Shown: positions 3,486-53,473 of the stretch, in pieces
How the letters are laid out: every line of letters starts with the position of its first letter
Position numbering within the stretch: the first letter of the stretch is position 1
Assembly (NCBI GenBank): GCA_021776235.1
Contig: JAJFGG010000066.1
Location: 26,904-90,903, forward strand
Length of the DNA stretch: 64,000 bases
DNA from: Alphaproteobacteria bacterium
GTDB lineage: Bacteria; Pseudomonadota; Alphaproteobacteria; GCA-2731375
Reading direction: 5' to 3'
The notes under the pieces: model-generated
What the model was told of the DNA's origin: nothing
Database searches by the model: none
The model's input: only the letters and a program-made list of their open reading frames with translations
Translations under genes and position numbers: made by a program

Positions 3486-4934
3486 ATGGGTGAATATCGG
3501 GCGGTTTTTCTGGTCAACGGCATAATGCTGTTGATCCTGGGCATCGCAATGATGGTGCCGGTACTGCTGGATGCGCGGGTTGATCACCCGGATTGGCAGG
3601 TTTTCCTGGCGGCGGCATTTTTGACGGCCTTCGTCGGTGCCGGTATCAGCATCACCTGTTGGGGTAGCGGCGGGGATTTGCACTTACGGCAGGCCTTTGT
3701 CCTGACCACCACTGTCTGGATCGTGACACCCACCTTCGCGGCCCTTCCCTTTGCCTTTTCCGATCTCAATCTCAGCTACACGGACGCCTTTTTTGAAGCC
3801 ATGTCGGGCATCACGACCACTGGCTCCACAGTGATTTCCGGATTGGAGGATGCGCCGCCGGGTATTCTGATCTGGCGGGCTTTGCTGCAATGGATGGGTG
3901 GCATCGGCATTATTGTGACCGCCATCGCGATCCTGCCCTTATTGCAGGTTGGCGGCATGCAGCTGTTCCAAATGGAAACATCAGATGCGTCAGAAAAGGT
4001 ATTGCCGCGCACGGCGCAGATCGCGGGGACCATCAGCATCATTTATCTATCCCTTTCCGTTCTCTGCGCGCTGGTCTACTGGGCCGCCGGGATGCCGCCG
4101 TTCGACGCCGCCGCCCATGCCATGACCACGATTGCGACCGGCGGTTTTTCCACTTCCGATGGGTCCATTGGGATCTATGACAGCGCCCTGATCGACTATA
4201 CCGCGACCGCCTTCATGATCATCGGCAGCCTGCCTTTCCTGCTGTATTTTCAGGTGGCGCGCGGCCGGCCCCTGGCGCTTTGGCGCGACAGTCAGGTGCG
4301 TTGGTTCTTTGCCATATTGTTCGCCGCGATTGCTGGCATGACCTTGTGGCAGGTGGGTGGCAATGAACTGCCATTCGGCGAAGCCCTGCGCTTTACCACC
4401 TTCAACGTTACTTCAATATTGACCGGCACGGGCTATGCCACCGACGATTATAGCCAGTGGGGCGGTTTCGCGGTTGTGATGTTCTTCTTTGTCATGTTCA
4501 TTGGCGGCTGTGCTGGTTCAACCTCGTGCGGCATCAAGATCTTCCGTTTCCAGGTGCTCTATGCAGCGGCCCGCACCCAGATGGGCGCCCTGTTGCAGCC
4601 CCACGGCGTTTTCGTTGCCAACTTCAACCGCCGGCCCATACCCGAATCGGTGATGGATTCGGTCATGAGCTTCTTTTTCCTGTTTGCCCTAAGCTTTGCC
4701 TTTCTGGCCGTGGCGCTCAGCCTGATGGGACTGGACTTTCTGACCGCCGTATCCGGCGCCGCCACCGCGATTGCCAATGTCGGCCCCGGCCTGGGCAGCG
4801 TCATCGGGCCTTCGGGCACGTTTGCCCCGCTGCCGGACATGGCAAAATGGCTTCTGGCGGCAGGCATGTTGCTGGGCCGTCTGGAGCTGTTAACGGTGAT
4901 GGTCTTGTTTACCCGCACCTTCTGGCGCGGTTAG
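3486..4934 (+). CDS. trkH: Trk-system potassium uptake protein TrkH
   Basis: 482-aa polytopic membrane protein with characteristic TrkH/KtrB repeats (GFSTSDGS, GGCAGSTSCGIK, TIATGGFS). Confidence 0.85.
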   Translation: MGEYRAVFLVNGIMLLILGIAMMVPVLLDARVDHPDWQVFLAAAFLTAFVGAGISITCWGSGGDLHLRQAFVLTTTVWIVTPTFAALPFAFSDLNLSYTDAFFEAMSGITTTGSTVISGLEDAPPGILIWRALLQWMGGIGIIVTAIAILPLLQVGGMQLFQMETSDASEKVLPRTAQIAGTISIIYLSLSVLCALVYWAAGMPPFDAAAHAMTTIATGGFSTSDGSIGIYDSALIDYTATAFMIIGSLPFLLYFQVARGRPLALWRDSQVRWFFAILFAAIAGMTLWQVGGNELPFGEALRFTTFNVTSILTGTGYATDDYSQWGGFAVVMFFFVMFIGGCAGSTSCGIKIFRFQVLYAAARTQMGALLQPHGVFVANFNRRPIPESVMDSVMSFFFLFALSFAFLAVALSLMGLDFLTAVSGAATAIANVGPGLGSVIGPSGTFAPLPDMAKWLLAAGMLLGRLELLTVMVLFTRTFWRG

Positions 4935-5162: not shown

Positions 5163-6542
5163 CTATTCAAAAACCTGCGCCGGCAGCCATTGGGCCAGGC
5201 GCGGAAAGCTCATGACGAGTGCGATGACCGTCAGTTGCGCGCCCACAATGGGAAGGATGCCCCAGTAAATATCGGTGATTTTGACCTGGGGTGGTGCAGC
5301 GCCTTTGAGGAAAAATAACGCGAAGCCGAAAGGCGGCGTCAAGAATGATGTTTGCAGGGTCAGGGCAATCAAGGTCGCCATCCAGAGGGCCGTGCCCATG
5401 TTATCGCCGGCATGGGCGGCGAAATCCAAATCGGACAGCACCGGCAGGAACAGGGGCAATGTAATGATTGTGATCTCGATCCAGTCGATAAAAAACCCCA
5501 AGACAAATATGATGCCGATGATGGTGAGAAGCATGCCCCAATCACCCAGGGCCAGCCCCTGCAGCATGCCGCTGACGACCTCGTCGCCACTGAAAAAGCG
5601 GAACGGATAGGAAAAGACGTTGGCGGCCAGAACAACGAAGAAGACCATGGCTGTCATCAGTGCCGTGCCTTCCACGACCTCGCGGAACAGGGGCCAGGTC
5701 AACCGGCCGTTCAAAAGCATCAGCAGGATGCCGCCCGCCGCACCCACGGCGCCTGACTGGGGCGGTGTGGCCCAGGCGAATATGATTGACCCCAAGACCA
5801 GAAAAATTAGACCGGCCGGCAACACCAGGCCCCGCACGTAGAAACCAAGCCATTGCCAGGACGTCCAGCCATGGCTCCAGTCCGACCCCACGCTTTCGTG
5901 CAGCGCCTTTGGCGGCGACCGCCATGCGGCCAGCATGTAGTAAAACAGGTACAGTGCGACCAGAATGGCTGCCGGCCACATGGTGGCAAGGAACATGTGC
6001 CCGATTGACACGCCCAACTTGCCGGCCAGAAAAAACAGCATGATCGCAGGCGGCAAAATAAGGCCCAGGGTTCCCGCCGCAGCTACGACACCACTGGCCA
6101 GGGCCGGGCGATAGCCCTGTTCCAGCATGGTCGGCAAGGCGATCAGGGCCAGGGTCGCGACCGAGGCGCCGACGACCCCTGCCGTGGGTGCGAGCAGGAT
6201 GCCCAAAAAGGTCACGGCGATGGCCATGCCCGCCGGCACCCGTCCAAGCAAATGCTGCAGACACAATAACAGATCGCGGGCAATGCCGCTTTTCTCCAAC
6301 GCCATGCCCATGAACAACAGCATGGGCACCGTGGGATAGATCAGGCTGCCATTGATGCTGCCGTATATGCGCAACGGCACGTTCAACAGGGCGATCCACG
6401 GCATCTCTCCCAGGGCGATGCCGATCAGGCAAAACCCGACGCCCAGGCCGGCCAGCAGCACCGCCACCGGCAGACCGGAAAAGATCAAAATCGCCAACGA
6501 GGCCAGCATGAGATAGGGCAGGATATCGACGAATTCCGGCAT
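5163..6542 (-). CDS. dctM: TRAP transporter large permease DctM
   Basis: About 459-aa polytopic protein with DctM-family signatures. ATG at 6542 (MPEFVDILPYL...) lies 5 nt downstream of the upstream ORF's stop. The track's 497-aa version carries an unlikely N-terminal extension. Confidence 0.85.
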   Translation of the reverse strand: MPEFVDILPYLMLASLAILIFSGLPVAVLLAGLGVGFCLIGIALGEMPWIALLNVPLRIYGSINGSLIYPTVPMLLFMGMALEKSGIARDLLLCLQHLLGRVPAGMAIAVTFLGILLAPTAGVVGASVATLALIALPTMLEQGYRPALASGVVAAAGTLGLILPPAIMLFFLAGKLGVSIGHMFLATMWPAAILVALYLFYYMLAAWRSPPKALHESVGSDWSHGWTSWQWLGFYVRGLVLPAGLIFLVLGSIIFAWATPPQSGAVGAAGGILLMLLNGRLTWPLFREVVEGTALMTAMVFFVVLAANVFSYPFRFFSGDEVVSGMLQGLALGDWGMLLTIIGIIFVLGFFIDWIEITIITLPLFLPVLSDLDFAAHAGDNMGTALWMATLIALTLQTSFLTPPFGFALFFLKGAAPPQVKITDIYWGILPIVGAQLTVIALVMSFPRLAQWLPAQVFE

Positions 6543-6547: not shown

Positions 6548-7129
6548 TCAGTCTTTGGCGCGGCGTTGCGCCAAATTGCGCACGGCTGCGACGATTGCCG
6601 CCAGCAGAAACAGGCCCAGGCCAAAGGGCATGGCGCCTTTCAATAGCCATCGCCACGGCCCGCCAAGGGTCAGCGCCAGTCTCTCGCCGTCATCGAAGCT
6701 GTTAATCGCATAGTCGATGCCAAAATAGAGAACCACCATTACAAACGGCAGCATGAGCAAGAGCAGACCCAGCAGTTCTATGCGGCCCTGCATTGCCGGC
6801 GACAGGCGTTCCCTGATGACATCGACCCGGACATGGGCGCCGCGAATGTAGGCATAGCCCAGGGTCAGCAGGACCAGGAACACGAACAGTTCCCATTCCA
6901 GGTATTGCGGCAGGGACAAAGCGGCGTTGAATACCTTACGGGCGACAATCTCGTAGACACGCACACCGATCATCGCCGGCAGAATGATCAGGGCGCTCCA
7001 GAATCCGATGCCGCAGATGGCGCGGTCAATGGCGCTCAGGATAAGCAAAAGGCGTTCCCGGCTGGAAGCCGCACGAAAGGCGGCCCAGCGCCGCCGCCGG
7101 GGGCCCTGCACGCGCCGGTGCCGGAGCAT
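6548..7129 (-). other. DctQ-like TRAP small-permease module encoded in-frame at the 3' end of the RND ORF
   Basis: 4 predicted TM helices (AICGIGFWSALIILPAMIGV, LEWELFVFLVLLTLGYAYI, IELLGLLLLMLPFVMVVLYFGIDYA, AMPFGLGLFLLAAIVAAV) and the conserved HVRVD motif. Starts at an internal Met and is immediately followed by dctM, as in canonical dctQM pairs. Confidence 0.7.
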
Positions 7130-10100
7130 TTTCTGAATATCCAGTTGTATGGCAAGCAAGGACGGGACCACCAGCAGAACCAAGAGCGTGGCAACGGCAA
7201 GGCCGAAAATCAGGGTTATGGCCATGGGTATAAGAAACTGCGCCTGCAGGCTGGTTTCAAACAACAACGGTGTCAGGCCGCCGATTGTGGTCAACGAGGT
7301 CAGCAGAACGGCGCGCAGCCGGTCCTGGCTGCCGGCTATGATGGCCTGAAAGCTGTCTTCGCCGGCGGCAATACTTTCATCGATGGTGGAAACCAGAATG
7401 ATGGAATCGTTAACCAGTATGCCGGACAGACCCAACAGGCCGACCAGGGTCAGCAAGCTCAAATCAAATCCCAGCAGCAGATGCCCCATGACCGCCCCGA
7501 CGATGCCAAACGGGATAACGGCCATCACCACGACGGGCCGGACATAGCTGGAGAAAACCCAGGCCAGGATGACATAGATCGCAGCCAGGCCGATCAGGGC
7601 GCCCAGCCGCATATCGGCCATGGTGCGGGCCTGTTCTTCAGCCCGTCCAGCGAAGCTGTACTGCAGACCGTATTGCCGGGCAATGCTGGGCAATTCGCTG
7701 TCTTCAAGTGCTTCCAGCAACTTGCCCATGCTAATTTCGCTTACGTCCAACTCGCCTGTGATGGCGGCCTCGCGCAGGCCGTCCTGGCGCCGGATGCGTG
7801 CGAATCCGGCGTCTTCCCGCATGGATACCACTTCGCTCAGGGGAACATCGACGCCGCTGGGGCCGCGAAGATACAGGTTCAACAGGTCTTCGGTCGTGAT
7901 CGCACCGCGCTCATATTGCACCTTTACCGTGACTTCCTCGTCGCCCCGGGGAAAACGCTTGGCGATGGCACCTTGAAACGCCGCCCGCACCTGTCGGCCC
8001 ACGCTGTCCGTCGAAAAACCAAGAGCCCGCCCACGCGGCGTCAATTCCAGGATCACTTCCTGCTTGCCGTATGGCAGATCATCCTCAACGTCACTGACGC
8101 CGGGGAAACGTTGCAGCAGGGTCTTCACCTCGTGTGTGGCGGCCTTCAGATCGCGGGTGGTGCCGCCCTGTAAACGAATATCGATCTCCTTCCCAGGCGG
8201 CCCGCCTCTGCGTGCATTCAAGTTGATGCGATCCACACCTGGCTGCCGTTGGATGCGCTGGCGCCAGGTCTCGATAAAATCCGGCATGCGGATCTGGCGA
8301 TGATCGGACGGTATCAATTCCACATAAAGGCCACCGTATTTGTCTCCTCGCACGCTGTAAAACTCGGCGGCTTGAGATTTGCCGAGACTGCCGAAGGTGG
8401 AATGGATCAGCGGCTCGCTGGCCACGGACGTGCCTGGGGACTGCGTCGCCGCCTCGCGCGCGGCCCGCTCCAACTCGTGCACCATGGCCTCTGTCCGGGC
8501 GCGCGGCGTTCCGGGCATCATCACTACGTTGCCATAGACAATGTTGCCTTCGGGTGTGGGAAAAAATTGAAAGCCAATCCGCCCGCCGCCAATTATACCC
8601 AGGGCAATGATCAGAGCGGCGACGGCGCAGGCCACGGTCAAGTACCGCCATTGTATGCAGGCAACTAGAAAAGGTCGGTATCCACGGCTGCGAAACTGAT
8701 CAAACTGACGGTTGAACCAGGCACGTGCCCGAGACTCCTGCTGGTTCGCCTGACCCAACGCGCCACGCAAATGACCCGGCAAAATCAGAAAACATTCAAG
8801 CAGACTGGCGACCAGAACAGAAACCGTGACCAGGGGAATGGCGCTCAAGATAGTGCCGATGATACCACCGATGATGATCAGCGGCAAAAAGGCGGCAATA
8901 GTGGTCAGGGAAGACGCCACCACCGGCGCCAACATGCGCAAGGCGCCCTCTTCGGCCGCTTGCCGGGCACTCAGTCCAGTGGCGCGGCGCGTGGCGGCAT
9001 GCTCGCCAACCACAATAGCGTCGTCAACGATAATGCCGAGCGTCATTATCAGTGCGAACAGACTGACCATGTTGATGGATTGCCCGGTCAGCAGCATCAC
9101 GCCCGTTGTCGCCAGCAGCGCGACCGGAATTCCGGCTGCGACCCAAATGGCCACACGCAAATTCAAAAAGATGAACAAGATGATCACGACCAGCGCCAGG
9201 CCGCCAACGCCATTTTTCAATAGTATAGCGATACGCTCGCTGATCAGGCCAGCTTGTACATCGTAATGTTCCAACTTCAGGGTCGGCGGCAGAGTCTGGC
9301 GCAGTTCCGCCAAATAACGCTCAACCGCGGCGGCAGCCTCCAGCGCATCTGCGCCAACAGCGCGTTTGACATGCAACTCGATCGCCCGGTCCTTGGCCAG
9401 GCGGCCTTCCACGGCATCTGCGTCGAAGGCTTCGTGTACACCCGCAATATCGCGTAGGCGTATCTTTTCACCGTTTGGCAGGGAGCGGATTTCTATATCG
9501 CCGAGGCCGGTGGCGGAGGTTTCAAGGCCCAGGCTGCGAATTTGCTTTTCAACCTGGCCTTCTATATTGCCCGACGGCAGATCCTGGCTGCGGTCACGAA
9601 TGCGATCTGCCACGTCACTCAGGCTCAAGCCCAGACGGCGCAAGGTTTGCGGCGTCATATCGACCCATATTTCCTCGTCCCTGGCGCCATACAACAGGAC
9701 CTGATCGATGCCGCGGGCCAGCAGTCCCTCGCGAATTCGCTTGGCGATGGCCTTTAGGGCGCTTTCACTAAACGGGCCGGAAACGGCAATGCGCGATATG
9801 GTGTCGTAGCGGGTGACCCGGCGAATAATTGGGGTTTCGCTGCCGGCGGGCAAGGTCGTGACCTGGGCGACGGCCGAAACCACATCCGCGCGTCCGGCCT
9901 GCATATCGCTGCCCGCGTTGAATTGCACCAAGACCGTTCCCGATCCCTCGACCGCGAATGAAATGATGTGATCCACGTTATTGAGATAACGGACTTCAGG
10001 CTCGATGGCGGTGACGATGTTGCCTTCAATGTCGCTCGCACTGGCGCCCGGCCAGGCGACAGTGACCGACACCATATCGATACCGAAATCCGGGAAGAAC

Positions 10101-10213
10101 TGTGTATTCAAGCGGGATAAAGACACTGCGCCAAGAACCAGCATGACCACCATCAACAGGTTGGCGGCATTGCGGTGACGGACAAACAATTTGACCAGAT
10201 CGGCGGGGTTCAT
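6548..10213 (-). CDS. RND efflux permease (AcrB/HAE1-like, ~1028 aa) continuing in-frame, with no stop codon, into a DctQ-type TRAP small-permease module (~193 aa)
   Basis: Single 1221-aa ORF. The N-terminal ~1028 aa show RND hallmarks, and TM12 ends ...VVPSLLAIQLD. Five codons later an internal Met (codon 7129-7127) opens MLRHRRVQGPRRRRW... followed by 4 TM helices and the DctQ signature GAHVRVDVIRERL. The ATG overlaps the MFP stop (ATGA at 10210-10213). Confidence 0.7.
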   Translation of the reverse strand: MNPADLVKLFVRHRNAANLLMVVMLVLGAVSLSRLNTQFFPDFGIDMVSVTVAWPGASASDIEGNIVTAIEPEVRYLNNVDHIISFAVEGSGTVLVQFNAGSDMQAGRADVVSAVAQVTTLPAGSETPIIRRVTRYDTISRIAVSGPFSESALKAIAKRIREGLLARGIDQVLLYGARDEEIWVDMTPQTLRRLGLSLSDVADRIRDRSQDLPSGNIEGQVEKQIRSLGLETSATGLGDIEIRSLPNGEKIRLRDIAGVHEAFDADAVEGRLAKDRAIELHVKRAVGADALEAAAAVERYLAELRQTLPPTLKLEHYDVQAGLISERIAILLKNGVGGLALVVIILFIFLNLRVAIWVAAGIPVALLATTGVMLLTGQSINMVSLFALIMTLGIIVDDAIVVGEHAATRRATGLSARQAAEEGALRMLAPVVASSLTTIAAFLPLIIIGGIIGTILSAIPLVTVSVLVASLLECFLILPGHLRGALGQANQQESRARAWFNRQFDQFRSRGYRPFLVACIQWRYLTVACAVAALIIALGIIGGGRIGFQFFPTPEGNIVYGNVVMMPGTPRARTEAMVHELERAAREAATQSPGTSVASEPLIHSTFGSLGKSQAAEFYSVRGDKYGGLYVELIPSDHRQIRMPDFIETWRQRIQRQPGVDRINLNARRGGPPGKEIDIRLQGGTTRDLKAATHEVKTLLQRFPGVSDVEDDLPYGKQEVILELTPRGRALGFSTDSVGRQVRAAFQGAIAKRFPRGDEEVTVKVQYERGAITTEDLLNLYLRGPSGVDVPLSEVVSMREDAGFARIRRQDGLREAAITGELDVSEISMGKLLEALEDSELPSIARQYGLQYSFAGRAEEQARTMADMRLGALIGLAAIYVILAWVFSSYVRPVVVMAVIPFGIVGAVMGHLLLGFDLSLLTLVGLLGLSGILVNDSIILVSTIDESIAAGEDSFQAIIAGSQDRLRAVLLTSLTTIGGLTPLLFETSLQAQFLIPMAITLIFGLAVATLLVLLVVPSLLAIQLDIQKMLRHRRVQGPRRRRWAAFRAASSRERLLLILSAIDRAICGIGFWSALIILPAMIGVRVYEIVARKVFNAALSLPQYLEWELFVFLVLLTLGYAYIRGAHVRVDVIRERLSPAMQGRIELLGLLLLMLPFVMVVLYFGIDYAINSFDDGERLALTLGGPWRWLLKGAMPFGLGLFLLAAIVAAVRNLAQRRAKD

Positions 10214-11454
10214 TGACGGACTTCGACCTTTTGTCCTGGTCCTATTTCGGCAAACCTGGTCAGCACCACCTGCTCGCCATCGCGGATATCACCCTGCAGA
10301 AGGACATCATTGCCGACCCGCGCCGTCAGTTCGACCGCCCGCCGTTCCAGACGGTCGCCTTGGATGACATAAATGGTATCACCGTTGTACAAGGCGCTTT
10401 CAGGTATTCGCGCCACGCCGCGATATTTTTGATCGGGCATGGCGATGGCTACGAAGGCACCAGGGCGAAGAGGATTTGTCAAATCTGCGCCAGCTAGCCG
10501 GATGAATACCGGTACACCGCCGCTGGCGCTGTCTATGCGGGCGTCAACGCGGTCCAATCGCCCGTCGTAACGGAAACTTCGCCCACCCACCTGCCAGGTA
10601 ATCTCCGCCGACCGGCCGGTCAGGGGGCCGTCCGAGACCAGGCGGCCGTATTGTCCGTTGGACAGAATGACCCTTGCTTCTAAACGGCCAGCGTCAATTA
10701 GCCGCGCGACGCGATCATTGGCGTTCAGGCGCTTGCCTACCTGGGCCTGCACATCGGCCAGGAAACCATTGAAGGGTGCGGTCAATCGCGCCCGTTGCAG
10801 ATCCCGTTTCGCCCGCCGCAGATTCACGCCGAGGCGATTGATGACCGCTTCCTGTTGTTTGATACGCGCGGTTTCGCCCGCCAATTCGCTTTTCCGCATT
10901 TCGGTCATCTTCTGCTGCCGGGTCAGGTCAATGCGCGCGGTATCCAGCCGCTTTTCGGAAACCGTGCCCCGGGTAGACAGCGAGCGCACGCGTTTCACTT
11001 CGCGCTGAAGCAAGCTGACCAATTCCAGATCGCGGCCCAGCGCCAACCCGTATGACTCCTTGCGGGCGCTGATTTCCTCCAAACGCGCCATTGCTTCCCG
11101 CGTCTGCGCCGACAGTTCATCTATCTTGGCCTGATAGTCGAATTCATCGATTGCGATTATCAAGTCGCCCTGATGCAAACTGCCGCCGTCGACGAAATTG
11201 TCGGCGACCGCGACCACCTCGCCGGCTACCAGGGCCCGTAGCTCGACCTCCCGCCCCGCGACAATTTCCCCGTACAGGCGCAGCTTCGGCTGAATATCAC
11301 CAAAGGCCACCGGGTGCGCGGTCACCAACCAGGCCTGTTCGGGTTGGTCCAGGGGCTCGACAATGGGTTTTGTGCGTACCAGATAGGCAGCGCCCATCAC
11401 GGCAGCCAGAACCACCATGGCCGGCACCACCGCTTTTCGAACTTGCCAAGACAT
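10210..11454 (-). CDS. Efflux RND periplasmic adaptor (membrane-fusion protein, HlyD/AcrA family)
   Basis: 414 aa with an N-terminal TM anchor, coiled-coil segment (QAKIDELSAQTREAMARLEEISARKES...) and C-terminal beta-barrel/MP domain pattern. Translationally coupled to the RND ORF. Confidence 0.85.
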   Translation of the reverse strand: MSWQVRKAVVPAMVVLAAVMGAAYLVRTKPIVEPLDQPEQAWLVTAHPVAFGDIQPKLRLYGEIVAGREVELRALVAGEVVAVADNFVDGGSLHQGDLIIAIDEFDYQAKIDELSAQTREAMARLEEISARKESYGLALGRDLELVSLLQREVKRVRSLSTRGTVSEKRLDTARIDLTRQQKMTEMRKSELAGETARIKQQEAVINRLGVNLRRAKRDLQRARLTAPFNGFLADVQAQVGKRLNANDRVARLIDAGRLEARVILSNGQYGRLVSDGPLTGRSAEITWQVGGRSFRYDGRLDRVDARIDSASGGVPVFIRLAGADLTNPLRPGAFVAIAMPDQKYRGVARIPESALYNGDTIYVIQGDRLERRAVELTARVGNDVLLQGDIRDGEQVVLTRFAEIGPGQKVEVRQ

Positions 11455-11574
11455 GGCGGAAACCTACGCAGCCTCGCCGGAACGATCAAGCATTCCGATC
11501 CAGGAACACCCTTTGGTGGACCGCTGCCTGGTCGACCGCTATCCTGGCCGGATTGTTGCAATGGGGAAATCTGC
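11455..11574. promoter_or_regulatory. Divergent intergenic region between the MFP-RND operon and argE (probable promoters)
   Basis: 120-bp gap between divergently oriented start codons. No adjacent regulator gene (no TetR/LysR), and no specific operator recognised. Confidence 0.3.
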
Positions 11575-12732
11575 ATGACTGCTCAACTTTTTACGCCACG
11601 CGAAATGATCGAACGATTGGTGGCATTCGATACAACAAGCCGAGAGTCCAATCTGGAGTTGATCCATTTCGTGCGTGACTATTTGGCCGGTCATGGCGTG
11701 GCCTCGACGTTGATCCACAACGAAAGTGGCGCCAAGGCCAATCTTTTTGCCACGGTTGGCCCCGTCGTCGATGGCGGCGTCGTGCTGTCGGGCCATACCG
11801 ATGTGGTTCCGGTTGATGGCCAGGATTGGTCCAGTGATCCTTTTCAGGTGGACGAGCGCGAGGGCCGGCTGTATGGCCGCGGCACGGCGGACATGAAAAG
11901 CTTCTCCGCCATCGCCCTTGCCTTGGTGCCGGCCATGGTGGAACGTGGCCTGTCACTGCCCATTCATTTTGCCCTTTCCTATGACGAGGAGGTCGGCTGT
12001 CTGGGCGCCCCGGACCTTTCCCGCCATATTCAGGGTCTGCCGTGCCGGCCGCAGGCGTTGATCGTTGGCGAGCCGACGGAGATGAAGGTGGTCAACGCCC
12101 ACAAAGGCTGCTGTGCCATCAGGACCGTCGTAACCGGTTTGGAGGGGCATTCCTCAGAGACGCACAAGGGCGTCAATTCCATTTTTGCCGCCATGGAGTT
12201 GATCCGGTACTTGGCCGATCTGGCGGAAGAATTTAAGACATCCAATGTCGATCCACGCTTTGACCCGCCCTACACCACCATTCAGGTAGGAACCATCACC
12301 GGCGGCACCGCCGGAAATATCATTCCCAAGGAAACCACGTTCTGGTGGGAATATAGGGCCCTGCCAAACATCGATGGTTCAAAAATAGTGGCCGATTTCC
12401 AGGCCTTTGCAGCCAACGAGGTGCTGCCGAAAATGCGCGCGGTTCATCCCCTTGCCGATATTCGTATCGATGTGCGGGGCGAGGTCATTCCGCTGTTGCC
12501 GGAAGATGGTTCGCCCGCGGAAACCCTGGTTCTGGCACTAACCGGCAGTAATCAAACCTATGCTGTTTCCTATGGCACCGAAGCCGGAATTTTCCAGAAG
12601 GGCGGCGTTGCATCAGTAATTTGCGGACCAGGCAGTATTTCTGTTGCGCATCGCCCGGACGAGTATGTGGAGATCTCACAGATCGAAGCCTGTACCGCGT
12701 TCATGCATCGGCTGATTGACCGGTTGGCCTGA
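11575..12732 (+). CDS. argE: Acetylornithine deacetylase (M20 peptidase family)
   Basis: MTAQLFTPREMIERLVAFDTTSRESNLELIHFVRDYL..., HTDVVP, DMKS metal-binding motifs; 385 aa. Start moved to the internal ATG at 11575; the track's upstream extension is antisense to the MFP gene. Confidence 0.8.
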   Translation: MTAQLFTPREMIERLVAFDTTSRESNLELIHFVRDYLAGHGVASTLIHNESGAKANLFATVGPVVDGGVVLSGHTDVVPVDGQDWSSDPFQVDEREGRLYGRGTADMKSFSAIALALVPAMVERGLSLPIHFALSYDEEVGCLGAPDLSRHIQGLPCRPQALIVGEPTEMKVVNAHKGCCAIRTVVTGLEGHSSETHKGVNSIFAAMELIRYLADLAEEFKTSNVDPRFDPPYTTIQVGTITGGTAGNIIPKETTFWWEYRALPNIDGSKIVADFQAFAANEVLPKMRAVHPLADIRIDVRGEVIPLLPEDGSPAETLVLALTGSNQTYAVSYGTEAGIFQKGGVASVICGPGSISVAHRPDEYVEISQIEACTAFMHRLIDRLA

Positions 12733-43731: not shown

Positions 43732-44556
43732 TCAGCGCTGGCATCTGGAACAAAAGAAGGTGGAACGGCCCGCCTGCACCAGGCGCTTGATGGCCTGTCC
43801 GCATTGGCCGCAGGCTTCGCCCTCGCGTCCATAGACCGCGAATTCGTGCTGGAAATAGCCCAGCTCGCCCGAGGCCTGAACATAGTCCCGCAGGGTCGAG
43901 CCGCCCTTGGCGATGGCCTTCGACAGCACGTCGCGAATGGCCGGCACCAGCCGTTCGGCCCGCCGGCCGGCCACCGAGGCCGCCAGGCGGCGCGGCGATA
44001 TGCCCGTATGGAACAGTGCCTCGCAGACATAGATATTGCCCAGCCCGGCGACGATTTTCTGATCCAGCAGGGCCGATTTGATCGGCGTCCGCCGGCCTCG
44101 CAGGGCCTGCGAGAGGACCACGCCGTTGAATTCATTGCCCAGGGGTTCTGGCCCCAGGTCCCGTAACAGGCGGTGCTTGTGCAACTCGTCGCCGGGGACC
44201 AGATCCATCATGCCGAACCGGCGGTGATCCTGATACACCACCGTGTGGCCGCCATCCGTTTCCAGCAGGACATGGTCATGCTTGCCGGGATCGGGCGCCA
44301 GGCCACTATGGATATACATCCGCCCCGACATGCCCAGATGGGTCATCCAGACCCAGCCGTCGTCCAGATCGGCCAGAATGAATTTCGCCCGCCGGTACAG
44401 CCGCTGCACGGTCCGGCCCTGCAGCCGCTGGGCGAAGTTATCCGGCAGGGGCCAGCGCAGATTGTCGCGCCGCTGGCTGACCCTGGTCAGCCGGTGGCCC
44501 ACCAGGGGCCCTTCCAGGCCGCGGCAGACGGTTTCAACTTCGGGCAGTTCTGGCAT
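43732..44556 (-). CDS. mutM: Formamidopyrimidine-DNA glycosylase
   Basis: N-terminal MPELPEVE (catalytic Pro2/Glu3), H2TH, C-terminal zinc finger CGQCGQ...CSRCQ. Confidence 0.9.
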
Positions 44557-44668
44557 CCGGGCACGTTAGCTGATCGGGCCGGTGGCCGCCAGCCGGCGGA
44601 AAAAAATATGCTATGCTGCCGCCGCGTTCGATCAAGCATGCCGCACGAACAGGGGGGCGAGGCCAGTC

Positions 44669-45412
44669 ATGGCGCCAGAAGCCAGCACCGATTTCGGTTT
44701 TCAGCGTGTCCCATGGGGGGAAAAGACCGCCCGGGTACGCGGCGTCTTCAGCTCTGTGGCGGGCCGCTACGACGTCATGAACGACCTGATGTCGGGTGGT
44801 CTGCACCGCCTCTGGAAGACCGCCTTCATCACCTGGCTGCGGCCCAGGGCCGGCATGCATCTGCTGGATCTGGCGGGCGGCACGGGCGATATCGCCTTCC
44901 GCTTTCTCGCCGCCGGCGGCGGCCGGGCCACGGTGGCGGATATCAACCGGGACATGCTTTTGGTGGGGCAAAACCGGGCCCGGCGGCGGCGTCTGGCCGG
45001 CCCCATCGAATGGCTCTGCGCCAACGCCGAAAGCCTGCCCCTGCCTGATGCCTCCGTCGACGCGGTCACCTGCGCCTTCGGCATCCGCAATATGACCGAC
45101 AAGGCCGGGGCCCTGGCCGAAATGCACCGGGTGCTGAAGCCCGGCGGCCGTTTCCTGTGCCTGGAATTCTCCCGTCTCGCCCTGCCGGGGCTGGAGGGCC
45201 TGTATGACACATACTCGTTTCAGGTCGTGCCGCGCCTGGGCCGCATGGTCGCCGGTGACGAGGCCTCGTACCGCTACTTGGCCGAAAGCATCCGCACTTT
45301 TCCCGATCAGGACGCCTTCGCCGCCATGCTCACCCGGGCGGGCCTGGGCAACGTCAGCTACCGCAACCTGGCGGGCGGCATCGCCGCCATGCATTCCGCC
45401 TGGCGGATTTGA
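44669..45412 (+). CDS. ubiE: Ubiquinone/menaquinone biosynthesis C-methyltransferase UbiE
   Basis: YDVMNDLMSGGLHRLWK motif, SAM-binding LDLAGGTGD; conserved fpg-ubiE neighbourhood. Confidence 0.85.
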   Translation: MAPEASTDFGFQRVPWGEKTARVRGVFSSVAGRYDVMNDLMSGGLHRLWKTAFITWLRPRAGMHLLDLAGGTGDIAFRFLAAGGGRATVADINRDMLLVGQNRARRRRLAGPIEWLCANAESLPLPDASVDAVTCAFGIRNMTDKAGALAEMHRVLKPGGRFLCLEFSRLALPGLEGLYDTYSFQVVPRLGRMVAGDEASYRYLAESIRTFPDQDAFAAMLTRAGLGNVSYRNLAGGIAAMHSAWRI

Positions 45413-47016: not shown

Positions 47017-48084
47017 TTATTCGAACAATCCCAGGAAAGTATCGATTTTGCCAATAACGGTGGCTGTAAGCCCGGCCCCATCGCCCGTCAACGCCGCCTT
47101 TAATACCAGATCGAGCTCGCCGGTCAGGGTCTTGAAGCGGCGTACTGTCGCCAGGTCCGGCGCCGGCGCCTTCGCCTGCAGGATCAGGGTCTCCGCGTCG
47201 GTCACCACCTGATCGATGATATCGGCAATCGCCGGCGGCAGGCGGTTGTGGCCGCCGCCGGGCCGCGCCTCCGTCTCCATAAAGCCGGCCAATGCCTTGC
47301 GCACGGCTGCAATCAGCTCTCTTAAACTGTTTTCCAGGTCGGCCGCGGCGGCCAACTGCTGATCGCGGCTCACATCCGGTCGCCGCCGCCGTGTCCGCTC
47401 TGGATCAATCTCCATGGCCGGCCTGTCATCAGGGCCCAGCTTGATCCGGTAGTGGGATTTCTCCGCCGGTTCCGCCGCCGGTTCCGCCGCAGGTTCCACC
47501 GCAGGTTTCGTGGGCGCCTTCGCCACGGGCGTGTCTTCAACCGGGGCCACGCCATTTTCCGGGCGGTGCGGCTCCCCGCAATCCAGTTCGGAATGTCTCA
47601 GCGCCAGTTGCCAATGCATGGCCCGCTTCAGGCCATCGCAATCCAGGCCCTTGACGGCGCTCAGGTCGGCGTTCATCAGATTGGCCTGCCTTATGTCCGC
47701 ACCGGTCAGATTGGCGCCGGACAGGTTGGCGCCGATCAGCGTCGTATCGATCAGGTTGGCATCGTCCAGAGCCGCCCCGATCAGTTTCGCCCCGATCAGC
47801 GCCGCCCGGTACAGATATGCGCCGTTCAGCGCCGCGCCGTTCAGGTCCGCGCCACTCAGGTCCGCCTCTCTCAGGTCTGCATTCTCCAGGTCCGCCCCGC
47901 TCAGGTCCGCGTCTCTCAGCTTGCCGTCACTCAGATTGGCATCGCTGAAATTCGCCCCGCCCAGGTTGGCGCCGGTGAAGTTCACGGCGCTCAGGTCAGG
48001 CCGGATATCGGGATAGTCCCGGCGCCAGGCGTTCCACGCCTCAACCCCCTCCGTCAGCTTCGCCAGATGTTCTCTATCCGCCAT
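47017..48084 (-). CDS. Pentapeptide-repeat protein with PA/E-rich linker and uncharacterised C-terminal domain
   Basis: Many tandem A(D/N)LxG pentapeptides (ANLGGANFSDANLSDGKLRDADLSGADLENADLREADLSGADL...). Linker PAVEPAAEPAAEPAEK, then ~170 aa with no recognisable motif. Start at the ATG at 48084. Confidence 0.75.
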   Translation of the reverse strand: MADREHLAKLTEGVEAWNAWRRDYPDIRPDLSAVNFTGANLGGANFSDANLSDGKLRDADLSGADLENADLREADLSGADLNGAALNGAYLYRAALIGAKLIGAALDDANLIDTTLIGANLSGANLTGADIRQANLMNADLSAVKGLDCDGLKRAMHWQLALRHSELDCGEPHRPENGVAPVEDTPVAKAPTKPAVEPAAEPAAEPAEKSHYRIKLGPDDRPAMEIDPERTRRRRPDVSRDQQLAAAADLENSLRELIAAVRKALAGFMETEARPGGGHNRLPPAIADIIDQVVTDAETLILQAKAPAPDLATVRRFKTLTGELDLVLKAALTGDGAGLTATVIGKIDTFLGLFE

Positions 48085-48431
48085 GCCGCGAGTATAGCCG
48101 CCCGCCGCCAGACCCGGCAATGCCACGCGGACGGCGGCCATCTATTGGGGCAGGCGTGCCGGCTTCGATTTGTATGCAACCACAGAGTCCGCTCCTCAGC
48201 TCTGCGTCGCACCAGCCCGCGCAGGATACGTCCGCCCGCCCGGCGCCATTTCGGGAACTCGTCCGCCGCGGCCAGCAGGATCTCGCTATCGCCTTCGTCG
48301 ATATCCGGGTGGTCCATGGTCACCCTGGATCGGTCCAGGCCCCAGATCGAGCTATGGCAGATTGTGGCAATGCCGATGCAGACGGGGTCAGGTGTCCGCC
48401 AATAGGCGCGCCTGGCGTGTGAACTATGCAA
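48054..48431 (-). pseudogene. Decayed paralogue of the prophage GH24 lysozyme (N-terminus replaced, ~150-bp internal deletion)
   Basis: Translation ...GIATICHSSIWGLDRSRVTMDHPDIDEGDSEILLAAADEFPKWRRAGGRILRGLVRRRAEERTLWL aligns with the endolysin at 51841-52284 (GYGSIWGLDRARLTMAHPDISEGDGEILLA...ADEFLRWRRAGGRILRGLVRRRAEERALWL). It lacks the catalytic N-terminal EGFSPVPYLD region and the central segment. DNA-level similarity is also visible. Confidence 0.7.
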
Positions 48432-48589
48432 TGACGCGGTTTTTTTCCACCATGCCTACGCCTCATTGACTCCCGGGCACTTAGGATTTTATCCTTTTTT
48501 GCTGATGTTCTTATATCGAACAGCGTATGCGATAATAGACGGGCTGGTTGTCAATCCCGGAAATATTGATCCAATTAAGGAGGGGTGCA

Positions 48590-50237: not shown

Positions 50238-51047
50238 TCAAAAAAAGCCCCTGAAATGATCCACTACAAGAGCAGTATAGTCACATAAATGTTGGGATAT
50301 TTTGAGAACAGGTAGGGGCTCCTGATTTGATTCAACCGCTGCTACAGCTGCACCAGTCCAGTCACCTGAAGCTGCTTCAATGGCACAATTAGTCCGATAC
50401 TCTAGAAGAACGGCCTCTGGTTCTAGAGGCCCAGCCCATACAGTAACATCTGGCGGAACATTCGCTGATGCGTCCTCATCAGAGTAAAATTTTACTGATG
50501 TAGATAATGAAATTCTCTCAGGTGCGACGAGCACAACAGGTGGAATCTGATGTTTATCTGTATTGCTAAATTTCTGAAGTAAAACTAGCGGATCCTGTTC
50601 AGGACAACCCAACACATCAACCTTATTTCGATGATATGGCTGAATCCTCTCGATCATTTCAACCGCTTTCTCAGGAAGCTGATTTAGCCTTGTCCTATCA
50701 AGTTGAGTTTCTTTCTCACATATTGGAAAATGTATTGCCCGTGGGTTCGTCGGAGGGTCAAGCTGAGTTCGCGCCAAGGCAAAGGCCAAGTTATCTAGAC
50801 CACTACGTAAATTATGAACGATTTCTCCAAAACAAAGAGACCAGTCTTGGGGTGTTTCTGGCGAATCGTATCTGTCTAATATTAATTTATAACCCATTCG
50901 CTCATCACGCAATTCGCAACGAGCTTTGATTGGATGTAGTTCATTCCAATTAGAGACCGAGACAGTAAGTTCGGATAACAATTTTGCTGCCCGCTGGAGC
51001 TTAAGCTCTGCAGGTTCAAGAAATTTAAGATGATCACCCTCGTTCAT
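50238..51047 (-). CDS. Hypothetical protein (269 aa) encoded on low-GC DNA
   Basis: Clean ATG at 51047; no recognisable motif. DNA markedly AT-richer than the surroundings; sits between the island genes and the prophage lysis cassette. Confidence 0.5.
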   Translation of the reverse strand: MNEGDHLKFLEPAELKLQRAAKLLSELTVSVSNWNELHPIKARCELRDERMGYKLILDRYDSPETPQDWSLCFGEIVHNLRSGLDNLAFALARTQLDPPTNPRAIHFPICEKETQLDRTRLNQLPEKAVEMIERIQPYHRNKVDVLGCPEQDPLVLLQKFSNTDKHQIPPVVLVAPERISLSTSVKFYSDEDASANVPPDVTVWAGPLEPEAVLLEYRTNCAIEAASGDWTGAAVAAVESNQEPLPVLKISQHLCDYTALVVDHFRGFF

Positions 51048-52733: not shown

Positions 52734-53081
52734 GCTGTTACCTCATGAAAAAAAGCCGCCTCGGTGGGCGGCTTGCGTTGGTTGCGGTGTATTCGTTAGA
52801 AAACTGCCGTTTAGGCGCTGCCGCGGCAGGAGTGGAATTATTCCAACGATACGGACCACCCCAGCAAAACCAATAAACGGAGGCGCGGGCGAAAACTCAC
52901 AACAGACTGCTGTGTCCAGAATGGACAATGGAACCGCTGTTGAGTAAAATTGGGCTTGATCTCTAAGCGTACATTCATAAAGCAATATGAAAGAGACTAT
53001 TTTGCATAGGAATTGTATCTCGAAAAGTACAAATATTTGGAAGCGTACAACTGAAGTAAGGTATTTCTTGGTATTTCGGAT

Positions 53082-53372: not shown

Positions 53373-53473
53373 TCGTTAGAAATTCTCTGTCGCTCTGATC
53401 CCAATTGCCGCCGGAAGGATTGTCGCAAAATATCACCAAATTCGGGAACCGCGGCTACGCGGACGACCTACCT

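What the first reader, a model, noticed from the sequence alone, without database searches (positions are those of the whole stretch)
6548..10213. RND efflux permease reads in-frame into a DctQ TRAP small-permease module (1221-aa ORF, no stop between them)
A complete AcrB/HAE1-like RND permease (~1028 aa, ending VVPSLLAIQLD just after TM12) is followed, 5 codons later and with no stop codon, by an internal Met. That Met opens a 4-TM module with the TRAP DctQ signature (GAHVRVDV), and dctM follows 5 nt downstream as in canonical dctQM pairs. Two unrelated adjacent genes lying in the same frame with no intervening stop is unlikely by chance. Either this is a genuine 16-TM RND::DctQ fusion (not a described architecture to my knowledge) or the RND stop has been lost (mutation or sequencing error). 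Either way it deserves verification.
Basis: partly seen in the sequence, partly recalled or inferred. Interest (0 to 1): 0.75.

Follow-up and report, generated by a model that had tools for sequence, protein, structure and literature searches.

The report
RND efflux pump fused to TRAP DctQ
A real gene fusion, kept across species, joins an RND efflux-pump permease to the small membrane subunit of a TRAP transporter that has no binding-protein gene nearby; the same join occurs in two unrelated pump lineages, so the two transporter types probably work together, which no paper I could find describes.

Summary
ORF 6548-10213 (-) encodes 1221 aa: ACR_tran at residues 7-1020 and a complete DctQ at 1081-1214. 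dctM starts 5 nt after the stop, and an MFP gene overlaps the start.

It is not an error. At least 11 distinct orthologues (74-89% identity, independent assemblies, at least 6 species-level MAGs of marine Alphaproteobacteria) keep the same open junction. The DctQ part and DctM are under purifying selection.

Within this clade the fused state looks ancestral and has been broken secondarily:
- one C>T nonsense codon plus a dctQ/dctM deletion;
- a 1-nt deletion;
- clean loss of dctQM;
- clean deletion of MFP and RND.

A second RND lineage (about 25% identical, Gammaproteobacteria/Pseudomonadota MAGs) carries the same MFP-RND::DctQ-DctM operon.

All these DctQM pairs belong to one DctM clade with no dctP nearby (0 hits in 630 kb; 52 of 64 canonical relatives have one). 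Free-standing members of the clade sit behind MerR-type promoters in metal-resistance clusters.

Best reading (inferred): the immobile Q scaffold tethers a TRAP elevator that works without a binding protein to the pump, giving coupled two-step transport. I found no literature on this.

The parts
10210..11454 (-). Membrane-fusion (periplasmic adaptor) protein gene, 414 aa. First gene of the operon; its stop overlaps the RND start by 4 nt.
   Evidence: Pfam HlyD_3. NCBIfam TIGR01730 RND_mfp, 147 bits against a cut-off of 94.9. Syntenic in all family-A loci.
6548..10213 (-). Fused ORF RND::DctQ, 1221 aa plus stop.
7139..10213 (-). RND permease core, residues 1-1025: 12 TM helices and two large periplasmic loops, ending ...AIQLD after TM12.
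   Evidence: ACR_tran at 7-1020. AF2 pLDDT about 80-90 over this part. Closest solved relatives are AdeB, MexB and AcrB. TM4 VDDAIVV is conserved; the TM10 Lys is replaced by Asn.
7085..7138 (-). Residues 1026-1043 (IQKMLRHRRVQGPRRRRW): the native basic cytoplasmic tail of the RND. Contains the internal ATG (M1029, nt 7129-7127).
   Evidence: Unfused relatives end 14-22 residues after the aligned Asp. L001 ends ...RQRIW* at exactly this point. An ATG three codons upstream of M1029 in the aligned register is the likely start in the RND-deleted loci L009 and L010.
7052..7084 (-). Residues 1044-1054 (AAFRAASSRER): a former 33-nt intergenic spacer, now translated. Contains an SD-like GGGAA.
   Evidence: In L001/L016 a TAG stands where L011 and L012 have CAG (Gln) and the window has GCC (Ala1044), followed by a 33-nt spacer and a TTG start.
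6551..7051 (-). DctQ module, residues 1055-1221: four TM helices with the GAHVRVD motif. Stop TGA at 6548-6550.
   Evidence: Pfam DctQ. N-terminus aligns with free-standing DctQ proteins P0142, P0139 and P0138. AF2 pLDDT 92.9. Foldseek best hit 7qha_A (SiaQ), TM 0.77, rmsd 2.9 A. dN/dS 0.04-0.30.
5163..6542 (-). dctM, the TRAP large (elevator) subunit, 459 aa, starting 5 nt after the fused ORF's stop.
   Evidence: Pfam DctM E 1.5e-56. dN/dS 0.07-0.14 across fused, split and RND-less loci. Falls in the dctP-less DctM clade.
11539..12732 (+). Divergent neighbour, an ArgE-like M20 deacylase. It marks the conserved upstream boundary of the slot (context, not part of the system). The start codon is uncertain.
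   Evidence: NCBIfam PRK07522, 510 bits against a cut-off of 412. Synteny.
3486..4934 (+). Convergent trkH, marking the conserved downstream boundary of the slot (context).
   Evidence: ORF. Pfam TrkH in syntenic loci.

Best explanation
Shown:
- The 1221-aa ORF is a genuine, evolutionarily maintained fusion. An RND-superfamily permease is joined through its own basic cytoplasmic tail and about 11 residues of former spacer to the cytoplasmic N-terminus of a complete 4-TM TRAP DctQ subunit.
- It is encoded in an MFP - RND::DctQ - DctM operon.
- The DctQM pair belongs to a distinct TRAP clade that never has a dctP gene beside it.
- Members of this clade have been joined to RND permeases in at least two unrelated RND lineages. 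Elsewhere they occur as MerR-controlled cassettes in metal-resistance clusters.

Inferred mechanism:
- Q is the immobile scaffold against which the DctM transport domain moves. Tethering Q therefore anchors one DctM elevator beside each RND protomer without hindering either machine.
- The DctQM unit works without a binding protein and moves a substrate across the inner membrane.
- The RND/MFP unit, with an outer-membrane channel encoded elsewhere, handles the same substrate in the periplasm.
- The most likely form is a two-step efflux relay (cytoplasm to periplasm to outside), like CopA with CusCBA or CzcD/ZntA with CzcCBA, but hard-wired by fusion.
- The substrate is unknown. Metal-linked contexts of the free-standing relatives hint at a metal or metal-chelate stress role, but the window's own operon has no such regulator.

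In the window's lineage the coupling is advantageous rather than obligatory, because either half survives without the other.
For: Real and conserved:
- Fused orthologues P0001-P0009 (1202-1226 aa, 74-100% identity) come from NCBI, ENA and JGI assemblies.
- The reading frame is open in GTDB species representatives L011-L015, in L007 and in L029.
- dN/dS is 0.02-0.13 for the RND part, 0.04-0.30 for the DctQ part and 0.10-0.63 for the linker, whose length is constant to within 1 aa. DctM is 0.07-0.14.

Fused state ancestral in this clade:
- In an NJ tree the fused and broken forms make one clade inside unfused, QM-less RNDs.
- The breaks are a CAG>TAG change, a 1-nt deletion and a 4.4-kb deletion that leaves TM12 and tail remnants in front of dctQ.

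Recurrence:
- P0265, P0285-P0292, P0157, P0261, L033 and L040 are ACR_tran::DctQ fusions.
- Where the flanks are visible (L021-23, L031-33, L039, L040) dctM follows. An MFP gene precedes in L021-23 and L040, but none was detected beside L033, where a P450 gene lies upstream.
- The RND parts are about 25% identical to the window's and lie on a separate branch of the RND tree.
- One 5.29-Mb contig appears to carry both the unfused outgroup RND and, at another locus, the closest free DctQM. This supports an independent join in the window's lineage.

dctP-less clade:
- The DctM tree splits the dctP-less loci from the canonical dctPQM loci.
- A DctP HMM built from 42 seeds gives 0 hits in 630 kb of dctP-less loci, including the whole window. 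It hits 52 of 64 canonical loci.
- Pfam on 10 ORFs of binding-protein size (291-432 aa) and on 10 further large ORFs of the window finds no DctP.

Topology and fold:
- Q is N-in/C-in and extends the scaffold (PMC9971032).
- The linker is rich in Arg/Lys: 11 K+R against 2 D+E over residues 1029-1075.
- The DctQ model matches SiaQ.

Metal context of free relatives:
- MerR-family regulators with best hits to CadR/PbrR, CueR and ZntR; CDF exporters; a CopA-type ATPase; DUF411; DsbA.
- MerR-type promoters with 19-bp spacers and dyads lie upstream of dctQ.
Against: - No experiment and no expression data exist. Everything functional is inferred from genomes of uncultured organisms.
- In the window's clade either module can be lost while the other stays under purifying selection. 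MFP and RND are deleted in L009, L010, L019/20 and L027. dctQM is lost or decayed in L008 and L001/L016. The two halves are therefore not obligate partners.
- L002-4 keep an intact dctQ and dctM behind a frameshift (11 contigs), so DctQ can presumably be made from its own start.
- A dctP or TAXI gene could lie elsewhere in these genomes. Only 64 kb (the window) or +-10 kb (the loci) were examined, and no TAXI-specific profile was run on the loci.
- TRAP QM units studied so far strictly need the P subunit and act as importers (PMC9971032), so export without a binding protein would be unprecedented.
- DctM shows no clade-specific Cys/His/Met signature that would point to a metal substrate.
- The window's operon has no MerR regulator and no outer-membrane factor gene nearby.
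- The trees are neighbour-joining without bootstrap support.
- AF2 confidence for the DctQ part within the full-length model is low (pLDDT 55-70), and the relative placement of the two modules could not be inspected.
Confidence: 0.45

Rival explanations
1. Tolerated but functionally neutral fusion. A stop codon was lost in an ancestor, and because the RND C-terminus and the DctQ N-terminus both lie in the cytoplasm the join does no harm. The RND/MFP pump and the DctQM transporter (served by a DctP encoded elsewhere) work independently on unrelated substrates.
For: - Either half is dispensable in close relatives, and the remaining half stays intact under purifying selection.
- The linker is the least constrained segment (dN/dS up to 0.63).
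- The fusion has been undone at least twice by trivial mutations.
- Orphan binding-protein genes are known in the related TTT system (Bug proteins, PMC5812351).
Against: - The same architecture exists in RND lineages only about 25% identical, and within that second group it persists down to 30-42% identity.
- All joined DctQM pairs come from one DctM clade that lacks dctP at every locus examined, whereas the nearest canonical relatives have dctP directly upstream.
- The frame and linker length are kept at saturating synonymous divergence.
Confidence: 0.3
2. The fusion exists at the ORF level only. DctQ is mainly translated on its own from an internal start (M1029 ATG at 7129-7127, TTG L1056 at 7048-7046, or CTG L1059), so the cell makes a normal RND with a C-terminal extension that is minor or degraded, plus a normal free DctQ.
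For: - The frameshifted relatives L002-4 keep dctQ and dctM intact and must start DctQ internally. One gene caller begins it at the TTG aligned with L1059 (P0125).
- In the RND-deleted loci L009 and L010 an ATG lies three codons upstream of M1029 in the aligned register, at the start of the retained tail.
- An SD-like GGGAA/GGGAG sits 3-9 nt upstream of the Leu cluster in the window and in L001, L002, L009, L010, L011 and L012. L007, L013, L014 and L015 carry only looser purine-rich variants.
Against: - No stop or frameshift accumulates between the RND and these internal starts in at least 11 orthologues, nor in the second family, as would be expected if read-through were irrelevant.
- In the window the Leu codon aligned with the conserved TTG is CTG.
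- The promoter-like hit in the junction is at chance level (4 found against 2.6+-1.4 expected).
Confidence: 0.15
3. Import machine in which the RND periplasmic domain (with the MFP) replaces the missing binding protein. It would capture substrate in the periplasm and hand it to the tethered DctM elevator for uptake.
For: - No dctP is present although TRAP QM units normally cannot accept substrate directly (PMC9971032).
- The fusion would place a large periplasmic substrate-binding domain beside QM.
- No outer-membrane factor gene was found among the window ORFs tested.
- The TM10 Lys of the HAE1 proton relay is absent, so the RND may not be a standard proton-driven exporter.
Against: - No RND is known to act in uptake.
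- Free-standing dctP-less DctQM pairs have no RND at all.
- RND-deleted relatives keep DctQM under selection, so QM does not need the RND to receive substrate.
- Lack of an adjacent OMF gene is common for RND operons (general knowledge).
Confidence: 0.05
4. Assembly or sequencing artefact, or a decaying pseudogene.
For: A single missing stop is a common error type. Two relatives do have a stop or indel here.
Against: - The identical open junction is found in independent NCBI, ENA and JGI assemblies and in at least 6 species-level genomes.
- Purifying selection acts on all parts.
- Both domains are full length.
Confidence: 0.02

Closest known systems
Fused DctQM TRAP membrane subunits (for example HiSiaQM; PDB 7qe5, 8thi) and two-chain SiaQM from Photobacterium profundum (7qha)
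   Same: - The DctQ module has the same 4-helix fold (Foldseek TM 0.77 to 7qha_A).
- It is followed by a DctM with the conserved TRAP core, including both Pro-Pro hairpin motifs.
- Q being covalently joined to another membrane protein has a precedent.
   Different: - In known fusions the Q C-terminus is joined to M through an extra TM helix. Here the Q N-terminus is joined to the C-terminus of an RND permease and M stays a separate chain.
- Known systems are strictly DctP- or TAXI-dependent importers (PMC9971032). Here no binding-protein gene is nearby.
Tripartite RND efflux pumps of the HAE1 type (AcrAB-TolC, MexAB-OprM, AdeABC)
   Same: - Full-length ACR_tran permease with an adjacent MFP gene.
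- Closest solved sequences are AdeB, MexB and AcrB, E about 1e-70.
- The TM4 Asp-Asp pair is conserved.
   Different: - There are 196 extra C-terminal residues (aa 1026-1221); about 167 of them (aa 1055-1221) form the four-TM DctQ module.
- It scores below every curated NCBIfam RND cut-off (449 bits against 1250).
- The TM10 Lys of the proton relay is replaced by Asn.
- No OMF gene was found among the window ORFs tested.
Two-step envelope efflux by separate transporters (CopA with CusCFBA; CzcD/ZntA with CzcCBA; MdfA/EmrE with AcrAB-TolC). Recalled from general knowledge, not tested here.
   Same: An inner-membrane transporter delivers substrate to the periplasm and an RND complex removes it from there. 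This is the logic proposed here. Free-standing relatives of this DctQM sit beside CDF and CopA-type genes under MerR control.
   Different: In the known cases the partners are separate proteins with no fixed contact, and none is a TRAP-type elevator. Here the partners are covalently tethered.
Canonical dctPQM operons of the COG4663-4665 'mannitol/chloroaromatic' TRAP group (for example L017 and L036)
   Same: They are the nearest canonical relatives: DctQ 31-45% and DctM about 40-46% identical, sharing the HVRVD motif.
   Different: They always have dctP directly upstream and never an RND gene. They form the other side of the DctM tree.

Membership tests
RND superfamily permease (Pfam ACR_tran) | Full-length match to the family profile. 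| tested here: met
   PF00873 at 7-1020 of the protein against profile positions 2-1017 of 1021, 541 bits against a cut-off of 28.
RND superfamily permease (Pfam ACR_tran) | 12 TM helices with two large periplasmic loops (after TM1 and TM7). | tested here: met
   The hydropathy scan gives hydrophobic stretches around 23-28, 336-473, 524-542 and 874-1021. The AF2 secondary structure shows alpha/beta porter-like regions between them, pLDDT about 80-90.
HAE1-type multidrug RND (AcrB/MexB/AdeB) | Charged proton-relay residues: the TM4 Asp-Asp pair and the TM10 Lys (AcrB D407, D408, K940; residue numbers recalled from memory). | tested here: not met
   Alignment to AdeB and a second HAE1 chain shows TM4 'IIVDDAIVV' conserved, but TM10 'ILVNDSII' aligned to 'LSAKNAIL', which puts Asn in place of the Lys. 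The same VND motif is the consensus of the whole subfamily, including unfused relatives.
HAE1-type multidrug RND (AcrB/MexB/AdeB) | Reaches the curated NCBIfam score for an RND permease model. | tested here: not met
   The best model, NF033617, scores 449 bits against a cut-off of 1250. TIGR00915 scores 332 against 940. CusA/CzcA TIGR00914 scores 244 against 701.
Tripartite RND efflux system | Adjacent periplasmic adaptor (MFP) gene. | tested here: met
   10210-11454 (-): TIGR01730, 147 bits against a cut-off of 94.9, with a 4-nt overlap with the RND start.
Tripartite RND efflux system | Outer-membrane factor (TolC/OprM-type) gene. | tested here: inconclusive
   No OEP family among the 23 window ORFs scanned. 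Not all ORFs were scanned, and OMF genes are often unlinked.
TRAP transporter small subunit (DctQ) | Match to the DctQ profile above the gathering score, over the full length. | tested here: met
   PF04290, 65.1 bits against a cut-off of 28.3, profile positions 1-130 of 132.
TRAP transporter small subunit (DctQ) | Four-helix N-in/C-in fold of solved Q subunits. | tested here: met
   AF2 pLDDT 92.9 with four long helices. The top 7 Foldseek PDB hits are all TRAP Q subunits or domains. The best is 7qha_A, TM 0.77, rmsd 2.9 A. The in/out orientation itself is inferred from the basic linker and PMC9971032.
TRAP transporter small subunit (DctQ) | Encoded next to, and upstream of, a dctM gene. | tested here: met
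   dctM starts 5 nt downstream.
TRAP transporter large subunit (DctM) | Match to the family profiles. | tested here: met
   PF06808, 192.5 bits against a cut-off of 23.8. However, NCBIfam TIGR00786 scores 207 bits, below its cut-off of 268. The conserved core, including two Pro-Pro motifs, is shared with canonical relatives.
Tripartite ATP-independent periplasmic (TRAP) transporter as a system | A DctP- or TAXI-type substrate-binding protein encoded with QM. | tested here: not met
   A DctP HMM gives 0 hits in the 64-kb window and in 566 kb of related dctP-less loci, against 52 of 64 canonical loci. No DctP or TAXI family was found among 23 window ORFs, nor in the Pfam-annotated loci L002, L007, L019 and L021. 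The rest of each genome was not examined.
TRAP transporter as a system | Binding-protein-dependent, Na+-coupled uptake. | not testable with these tools
   Needs transport assays.

The most novel reading that the evidence does not exclude
RND::DctQ with DctM forms a hard-wired supercomplex: an RND trimer carrying three tethered TRAP elevators that work without any binding protein. A TRAP-type QM unit would act as the inner-membrane stage (exporter) of a two-stage trans-envelope efflux machine. Its free-standing relatives would be MerR-controlled members of Zn/Cd/Pb/Cu stress regulons. This would overturn the view that TRAP QM units are obligately P-dependent importers, and it would be the first covalent coupling of two different secondary-transporter classes.
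Probability: 0.25. Interest if true: 0.9.

Novelty: new variant of a known kind. Interest (0 to 1): 0.72.

Why it matters
TRAP transporters are defined by strict dependence on a periplasmic binding protein, and RND pumps are the main Gram-negative efflux machines. The two have never been linked, as far as I could find.

A DctQM clade that consistently lacks dctP and has been joined repeatedly to RND permeases through the one subunit that does not move (Q) gives a concrete, testable case on three questions:
- whether TRAP membrane units can work without P, and possibly in the export direction;
- how inner-membrane transporters hand substrates to RND pumps;
- what the Q subunit is for.

The natural series in close relatives (fused, split by frameshift, split by nonsense, RND-deleted, QM-deleted) is a ready-made set of genetic controls.

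Public annotation currently hides the architecture. The NCBI names for the fused proteins are simply 'efflux RND transporter permease subunit'.

Tried and rejected
- **Sequencing or assembly error:** rejected on conservation across independent assemblies.
- **L001 and L002 as the ancestral unfused state:** rejected. They nest within the fused clade, differ from fused sisters by one C>T change or one deleted base, and L001 also carries a dctQ/dctM deletion.
- **Programmed frameshift in L002-4:** no slippery motif is visible at the 1-nt deletion. Not pursued.
- **A single ancient fusion shared by both families:** unlikely. The RND parts are 25% identical, unfused QM-less RNDs are far closer to each family, and an outgroup genome appears to carry the RND and the closest DctQM at separate loci. 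A weak shared 'basic-W-x-x-A-F-R' motif in the linkers of the window's family and of P0292/P0157 is out of register and was not taken as homology.
- **Metal-ligand signature in DctM:** clade-specific conserved columns contain no Cys, His or Met.
- **Internal promoter at the junction:** the hit at 7155-7128 is within chance expectation.
- **First metagenome scan, with a 14-sequence DctQ alignment:** failed for lack of a conserved stretch. A 7-sequence alignment worked.
- **Second homology search with the DctQ part:** returned only 17 proteins and none of the fused ones. The exhaustive representative search was needed to find the second family.
- **Plasmid collection:** no close relative of the dctP-less DctM. 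The best full-length hits are about 44% identical and of the canonical type.
- **Literature:** seven full-text searches found nothing on RND-DctQ fusions, dctP-less TRAP units or TRAP genes in metal islands.
- **Full-length AF2 model:** gave only low confidence for the DctQ part, and coordinates could not be inspected, so it says nothing about how the two modules pack.
- **Contexts of the two closest free DctQ representatives (P0139, P0140):** the contigs were too short to be informative. The upstream ORF fragments did not resemble the L017 DctP or the RND C-termini on visual inspection; no search was run.

Full report
**1. The observation**

The window contains ORF 6548-10213 on the minus strand, 1221 aa. 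Pfam finds ACR_tran over residues 7-1020 (E 6.5e-162) and a complete DctQ domain over 1081-1214 (E 7.5e-18; profile positions 1-130 of 132).

The sequence shows:
- the RND core ending ...AIQLD at D1025;
- an internal ATG at M1029 (7129-7127);
- no stop until TGA at 6550-6548;
- the dctM ATG at 6542.

dctM (5163-6542) is a 459-aa DctM. An MFP gene (10210-11454) overlaps the RND start by 4 nt.

**2. Not an artefact**

A homology search with the whole protein returns nine 90%-identity clusters of 1202-1226 aa (one being the window's own sequence). They carry both domains, are 74-100% identical, and come from NCBI, ENA and JGI assemblies. In GTDB species-representative genomes the frame is open across the junction in five marine MAGs labelled Alphaproteobacteria or uncultured Rhodospirillaceae (L011-L015). 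It is also open in L007 and in the metagenome contig L029.

Nei-Gojobori estimates on seven fused loci:

| Segment | dN/dS |
|---|---|
| RND part | 0.02-0.13 |
| DctQ part | 0.04-0.30 |
| Tail and linker (44 residues) | 0.10-0.63 |

Synonymous divergence in most of these pairs is 0.8 to saturated, yet the linker length differs by only one residue. DctM has dN/dS 0.07-0.14.

**3. Anatomy of the junction**

- Unfused relatives of the RND end 14-22 residues after the aligned Asp, with a basic tail.
- Free-standing relatives of the DctQ start about 11 residues before TM1 (P0142 MLKLCDAAERA...). This aligns with L1055-A1065 of the window.
- So residues 1026-1043 are the pump's own tail, 1044-1054 are a translated former spacer of 33 nt, and DctQ proper starts near 1055.
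- In L001/L016 a TAG sits exactly where the fused sisters L011 and L012 have CAG, followed by that same 33-nt spacer.
- The linker region (residues 1029-1075) has 11 Arg/Lys against 2 Asp/Glu. This fits a cytoplasmic location.
- The Q subunit is N-in/C-in in the SiaQM structure (PMC9971032). The RND C-terminus is cytoplasmic (established for AcrB-type pumps). The join is therefore topologically allowed.
- An AF2 model of the linker plus DctQ is confident (pLDDT 92.9). Its seven best PDB matches are all TRAP Q subunits, the best being SiaQ 7qha_A (TM 0.77, rmsd 2.9 A).

**4. History within the window's clade (family A)**

The slot is conserved: argD-argF-hsp33-(199 aa)-[ArgE-like M20, opposite strand]-MFP-RND-...-[trkH, opposite strand]. 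Five states occur in it:

| State | Loci | Evidence |
|---|---|---|
| MFP-RND::DctQ-DctM (fused) | window, L007, L011-15, L029 | |
| Same, split by a 1-nt deletion just after AIQLDF; dctQ and dctM intact | L002-4 (11 contigs) | |
| Split by the CAG>TAG nonsense codon, with a deletion joining the front of dctQ to the last codons of dctM | L001/L016 | |
| MFP-RND only | L008, and the more distant L005 | |
| dctQ-dctM only, after a 4.4-kb deletion that joins the region upstream of the MFP gene to the end of RND TM12, leaving TM12 and tail remnants in front of dctQ | L009, L010, L019/20, L027 | |

In a neighbour-joining tree of the RND part, all fused and broken forms make one clade nested among unfused RNDs of 1025-1055 aa. 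The broken forms are sisters of fused ones. The fused state is therefore ancestral for this clade and the others are secondary.

This cuts both ways. The fusion has been kept for a long time, but each half can survive without the other. DctM stays under the same purifying selection in RND-deleted and frameshifted loci.

**5. The fusion is recurrent**

An exhaustive search of 1.84 billion representatives with the 193-residue linker plus DctQ found three more ACR_tran::DctQ proteins in other clusters: P0265 (1232 aa), P0157 and P0261. P0265 is only about 25% identical to the window in the RND part and about 37% in the DctQ part. It sits in (116 aa)-MFP-RND::DctQ-DctM-M20-CoA transferase.

Its family has nine fused clusters (42-100% identity, 1187-1307 aa), labelled Gammaproteobacteria or Pseudomonadota MAGs where named. 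The metagenome scan added the full-length fusions L033 (1238 aa) and L040 (1233 aa). L040 corresponds to P0285 and L033 appears to correspond to P0292, so these are loci of clusters already counted rather than new lineages.

In an RND tree, family A and this second group lie on opposite sides of the midpoint root, each next to unfused RNDs. Within the second group the fused lineages P0157 and P0292 branch outside a large unfused clade. One member of that unfused clade, Magnetospira QH-2, has PadR-MFP-RND and no dctQM.

The closest free DctQM to family A (L028/L030; DctM 65% identical) is not next to an RND. A protein at least 90% identical to its DctM shares the same longest-contig length (5,287,738 bp) as P0017, the QM-less outgroup RND of family A. 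That organism therefore appears to have both, unlinked. The simplest reading is at least two independent joins.

**6. A dctP-less TRAP clade**

I classified 80 loci fetched with the motif HVRVD[IV][LIV]RE.
- Most are canonical dctP-dctQ-dctM.
- A minority have no DctP hit, and their DctM is 50-65% identical to the window's or to P0265's partner.

A DctM tree separates exactly these two sets. A DctP HMM built from 42 seeds gives no hit in 630 kb of dctP-less loci, including the entire window. It hits 52 of 64 canonical loci, and most of the rest are contigs too short to show the upstream gene. Pfam scans of 23 window ORFs found no DctP or TAXI family. The nearest canonical DctQ (39% identity) sits in a dctPQM operon. 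The DctM core motifs are shared by both clades, and no clade-specific Cys/His/Met columns appear.

**7. Context of free-standing dctP-less pairs**

L034/35, L038, L055 and L089/90/92 all have an adjacent MerR-family regulator whose best NCBIfam hits are CadR/PbrR, CueR and ZntR (all below cut-off). Nearby genes include CDF exporters, a CopA-type P-ATPase, DUF411, LspA and DsbA.

Upstream of dctQ in three loci there are promoters with the 19-bp spacer and internal dyad typical of MerR-family control:
- TTGAAC-CTATAGTAGCTATAGGTAC-TAGATT
- TTGCAT-CTACAGTAACTGTAGCTCG-TAAGAT
- TTGACC-CTCTAATAACTAGAGGTTC-TACGCT

The resemblance to CadR/PbrR/ZntR operators is from memory. The window's own operon has no such regulator.

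**8. What the RND is**

It is an RND-superfamily permease with its closest solved relatives among the HAE1 pumps AdeB, MexB and AcrB. It is below every curated NCBIfam cut-off. It keeps the TM4 Asp-Asp pair but has Asn where HAE1 pumps have the TM10 Lys. This trait is shared with its unfused relatives (consensus). I therefore file it as a divergent RND and not as a bona fide HAE1 member.

**9. Mechanism**

*Shown:* a conserved covalent join of an RND permease to the TRAP Q subunit, with M as a separate chain and an MFP upstream.

*Inferred:*
- In the SiaQM structure, Q only extends the static scaffold against which the M transport domain moves (PMC9971032). Q is therefore the one subunit that can be tethered without blocking the elevator. 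This may explain why the join is to Q in every case.
- The lack of dctP across the clade suggests a QM unit that takes substrate directly.
- The recurrent pairing with RND/MFP, and the metal-efflux company kept by free-standing members, suggest that QM and the pump act on the same substrate in series. The most plausible scheme is export to the periplasm followed by RND-mediated removal.

I put about 0.95 on 'real, maintained fusion' and about 0.45 on the tether/relay reading as a whole.

The main rivals are:
- a tolerated neutral fusion with an unlinked DctP (0.3);
- predominant internal initiation of DctQ (0.15);
- an import machine in which the RND replaces the binding protein (0.05).

**10. 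Novelty**

Seven full-text searches found no paper on an RND-DctQ fusion, on dctP-less TRAP membrane units, or on TRAP genes in metal-resistance clusters. Databases hold the proteins, but NCBI names them only as RND permeases. JGI's automatic annotation lists both COGs. Both parts are of known kinds; the architecture and the dctP-less clade appear to be undescribed. I rate it a new variant of a known kind, of high interest to transporter specialists, with function still to be tested.

Noticed in passing
L035 9971-11850; L038 1549-3955; L055 9351-11808; L089 9235-11823: Free-standing dctP-less dctQ-dctM pairs each have an adjacent MerR-family (CadR/CueR/ZntR-like) regulator. Three of the four (L035, L038, L089) show a MerR-type promoter (19-bp spacer with a dyad) directly upstream of dctQ. 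They lie among CDF exporters, a CopA-type ATPase, DUF411, LspA and DsbA genes. This would place a TRAP-type unit in metal-stress regulons.
   Followed up: partly
L035 13111-16850 (also L034 3357-7096): A second, unusual TRAP-like pair next to the first one: a 357-aa protein with DctQ only in its C-terminal half, followed by an 886-aa protein with three DctM-matching stretches (double length).
   Followed up: no
P0149 (356 aa), P0222 and P0227 (342 aa), P0275 (426 aa, weak sub-cut-off RDD hit + DctQ): Other DctQ proteins with long N-terminal extensions of unknown nature turned up among the closest representatives. DctQ may be joined to further membrane modules besides RND.
   Followed up: partly
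window 11539-12732 and 1788-2978; L021 15103-17683: An M20 peptidase and a family-III CoA-transferase lie near the operon in both fusion families. In the window's family they predate the arrival of dctQM (they are present in the outgroup L005), and the M20 scores as ArgE next to argD/argF. The resemblance may therefore be coincidental.
   Followed up: partly
window 7155-7128 (-): A sigma-70-like hexamer pair (TTGCCA-16-GAAAAT) lies exactly at the RND/DctQ junction. The number of such hits in the region is at chance level.
   Followed up: partly
window 57847-60702 (-), 61289-63274 (-) and the run of small minus-strand ORFs at 50238-57541: A 951-aa protein with a C-terminal PBECR3 nuclease domain (a phage-associated family) and several ORFs with no Pfam match. 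Possibly a prophage or phage-derived region at the right end of the window.
   Followed up: no
window 48548-49837 (+), 55022-56101 (-), 44173-45048 (+), 56186-57541 (-): Four sizeable ORFs (291-451 aa) with no Pfam family at E<=1e-4.
   Followed up: no
window 47017-48141 (-): A 374-aa pentapeptide-repeat protein.
   Followed up: no
Linker regions: window residues 1039-1049; P0292 and P0157 linkers: A short basic-aromatic motif (RRRW-AFR / RRIWMRQAFRR / RRKWFRTAWRR) recurs in the RND-DctQ linkers of otherwise distant fusion families. AF2 predicts it as a confident short helix. It could be an interfacial amphipathic helix or a trace of common origin.
   Followed up: partly
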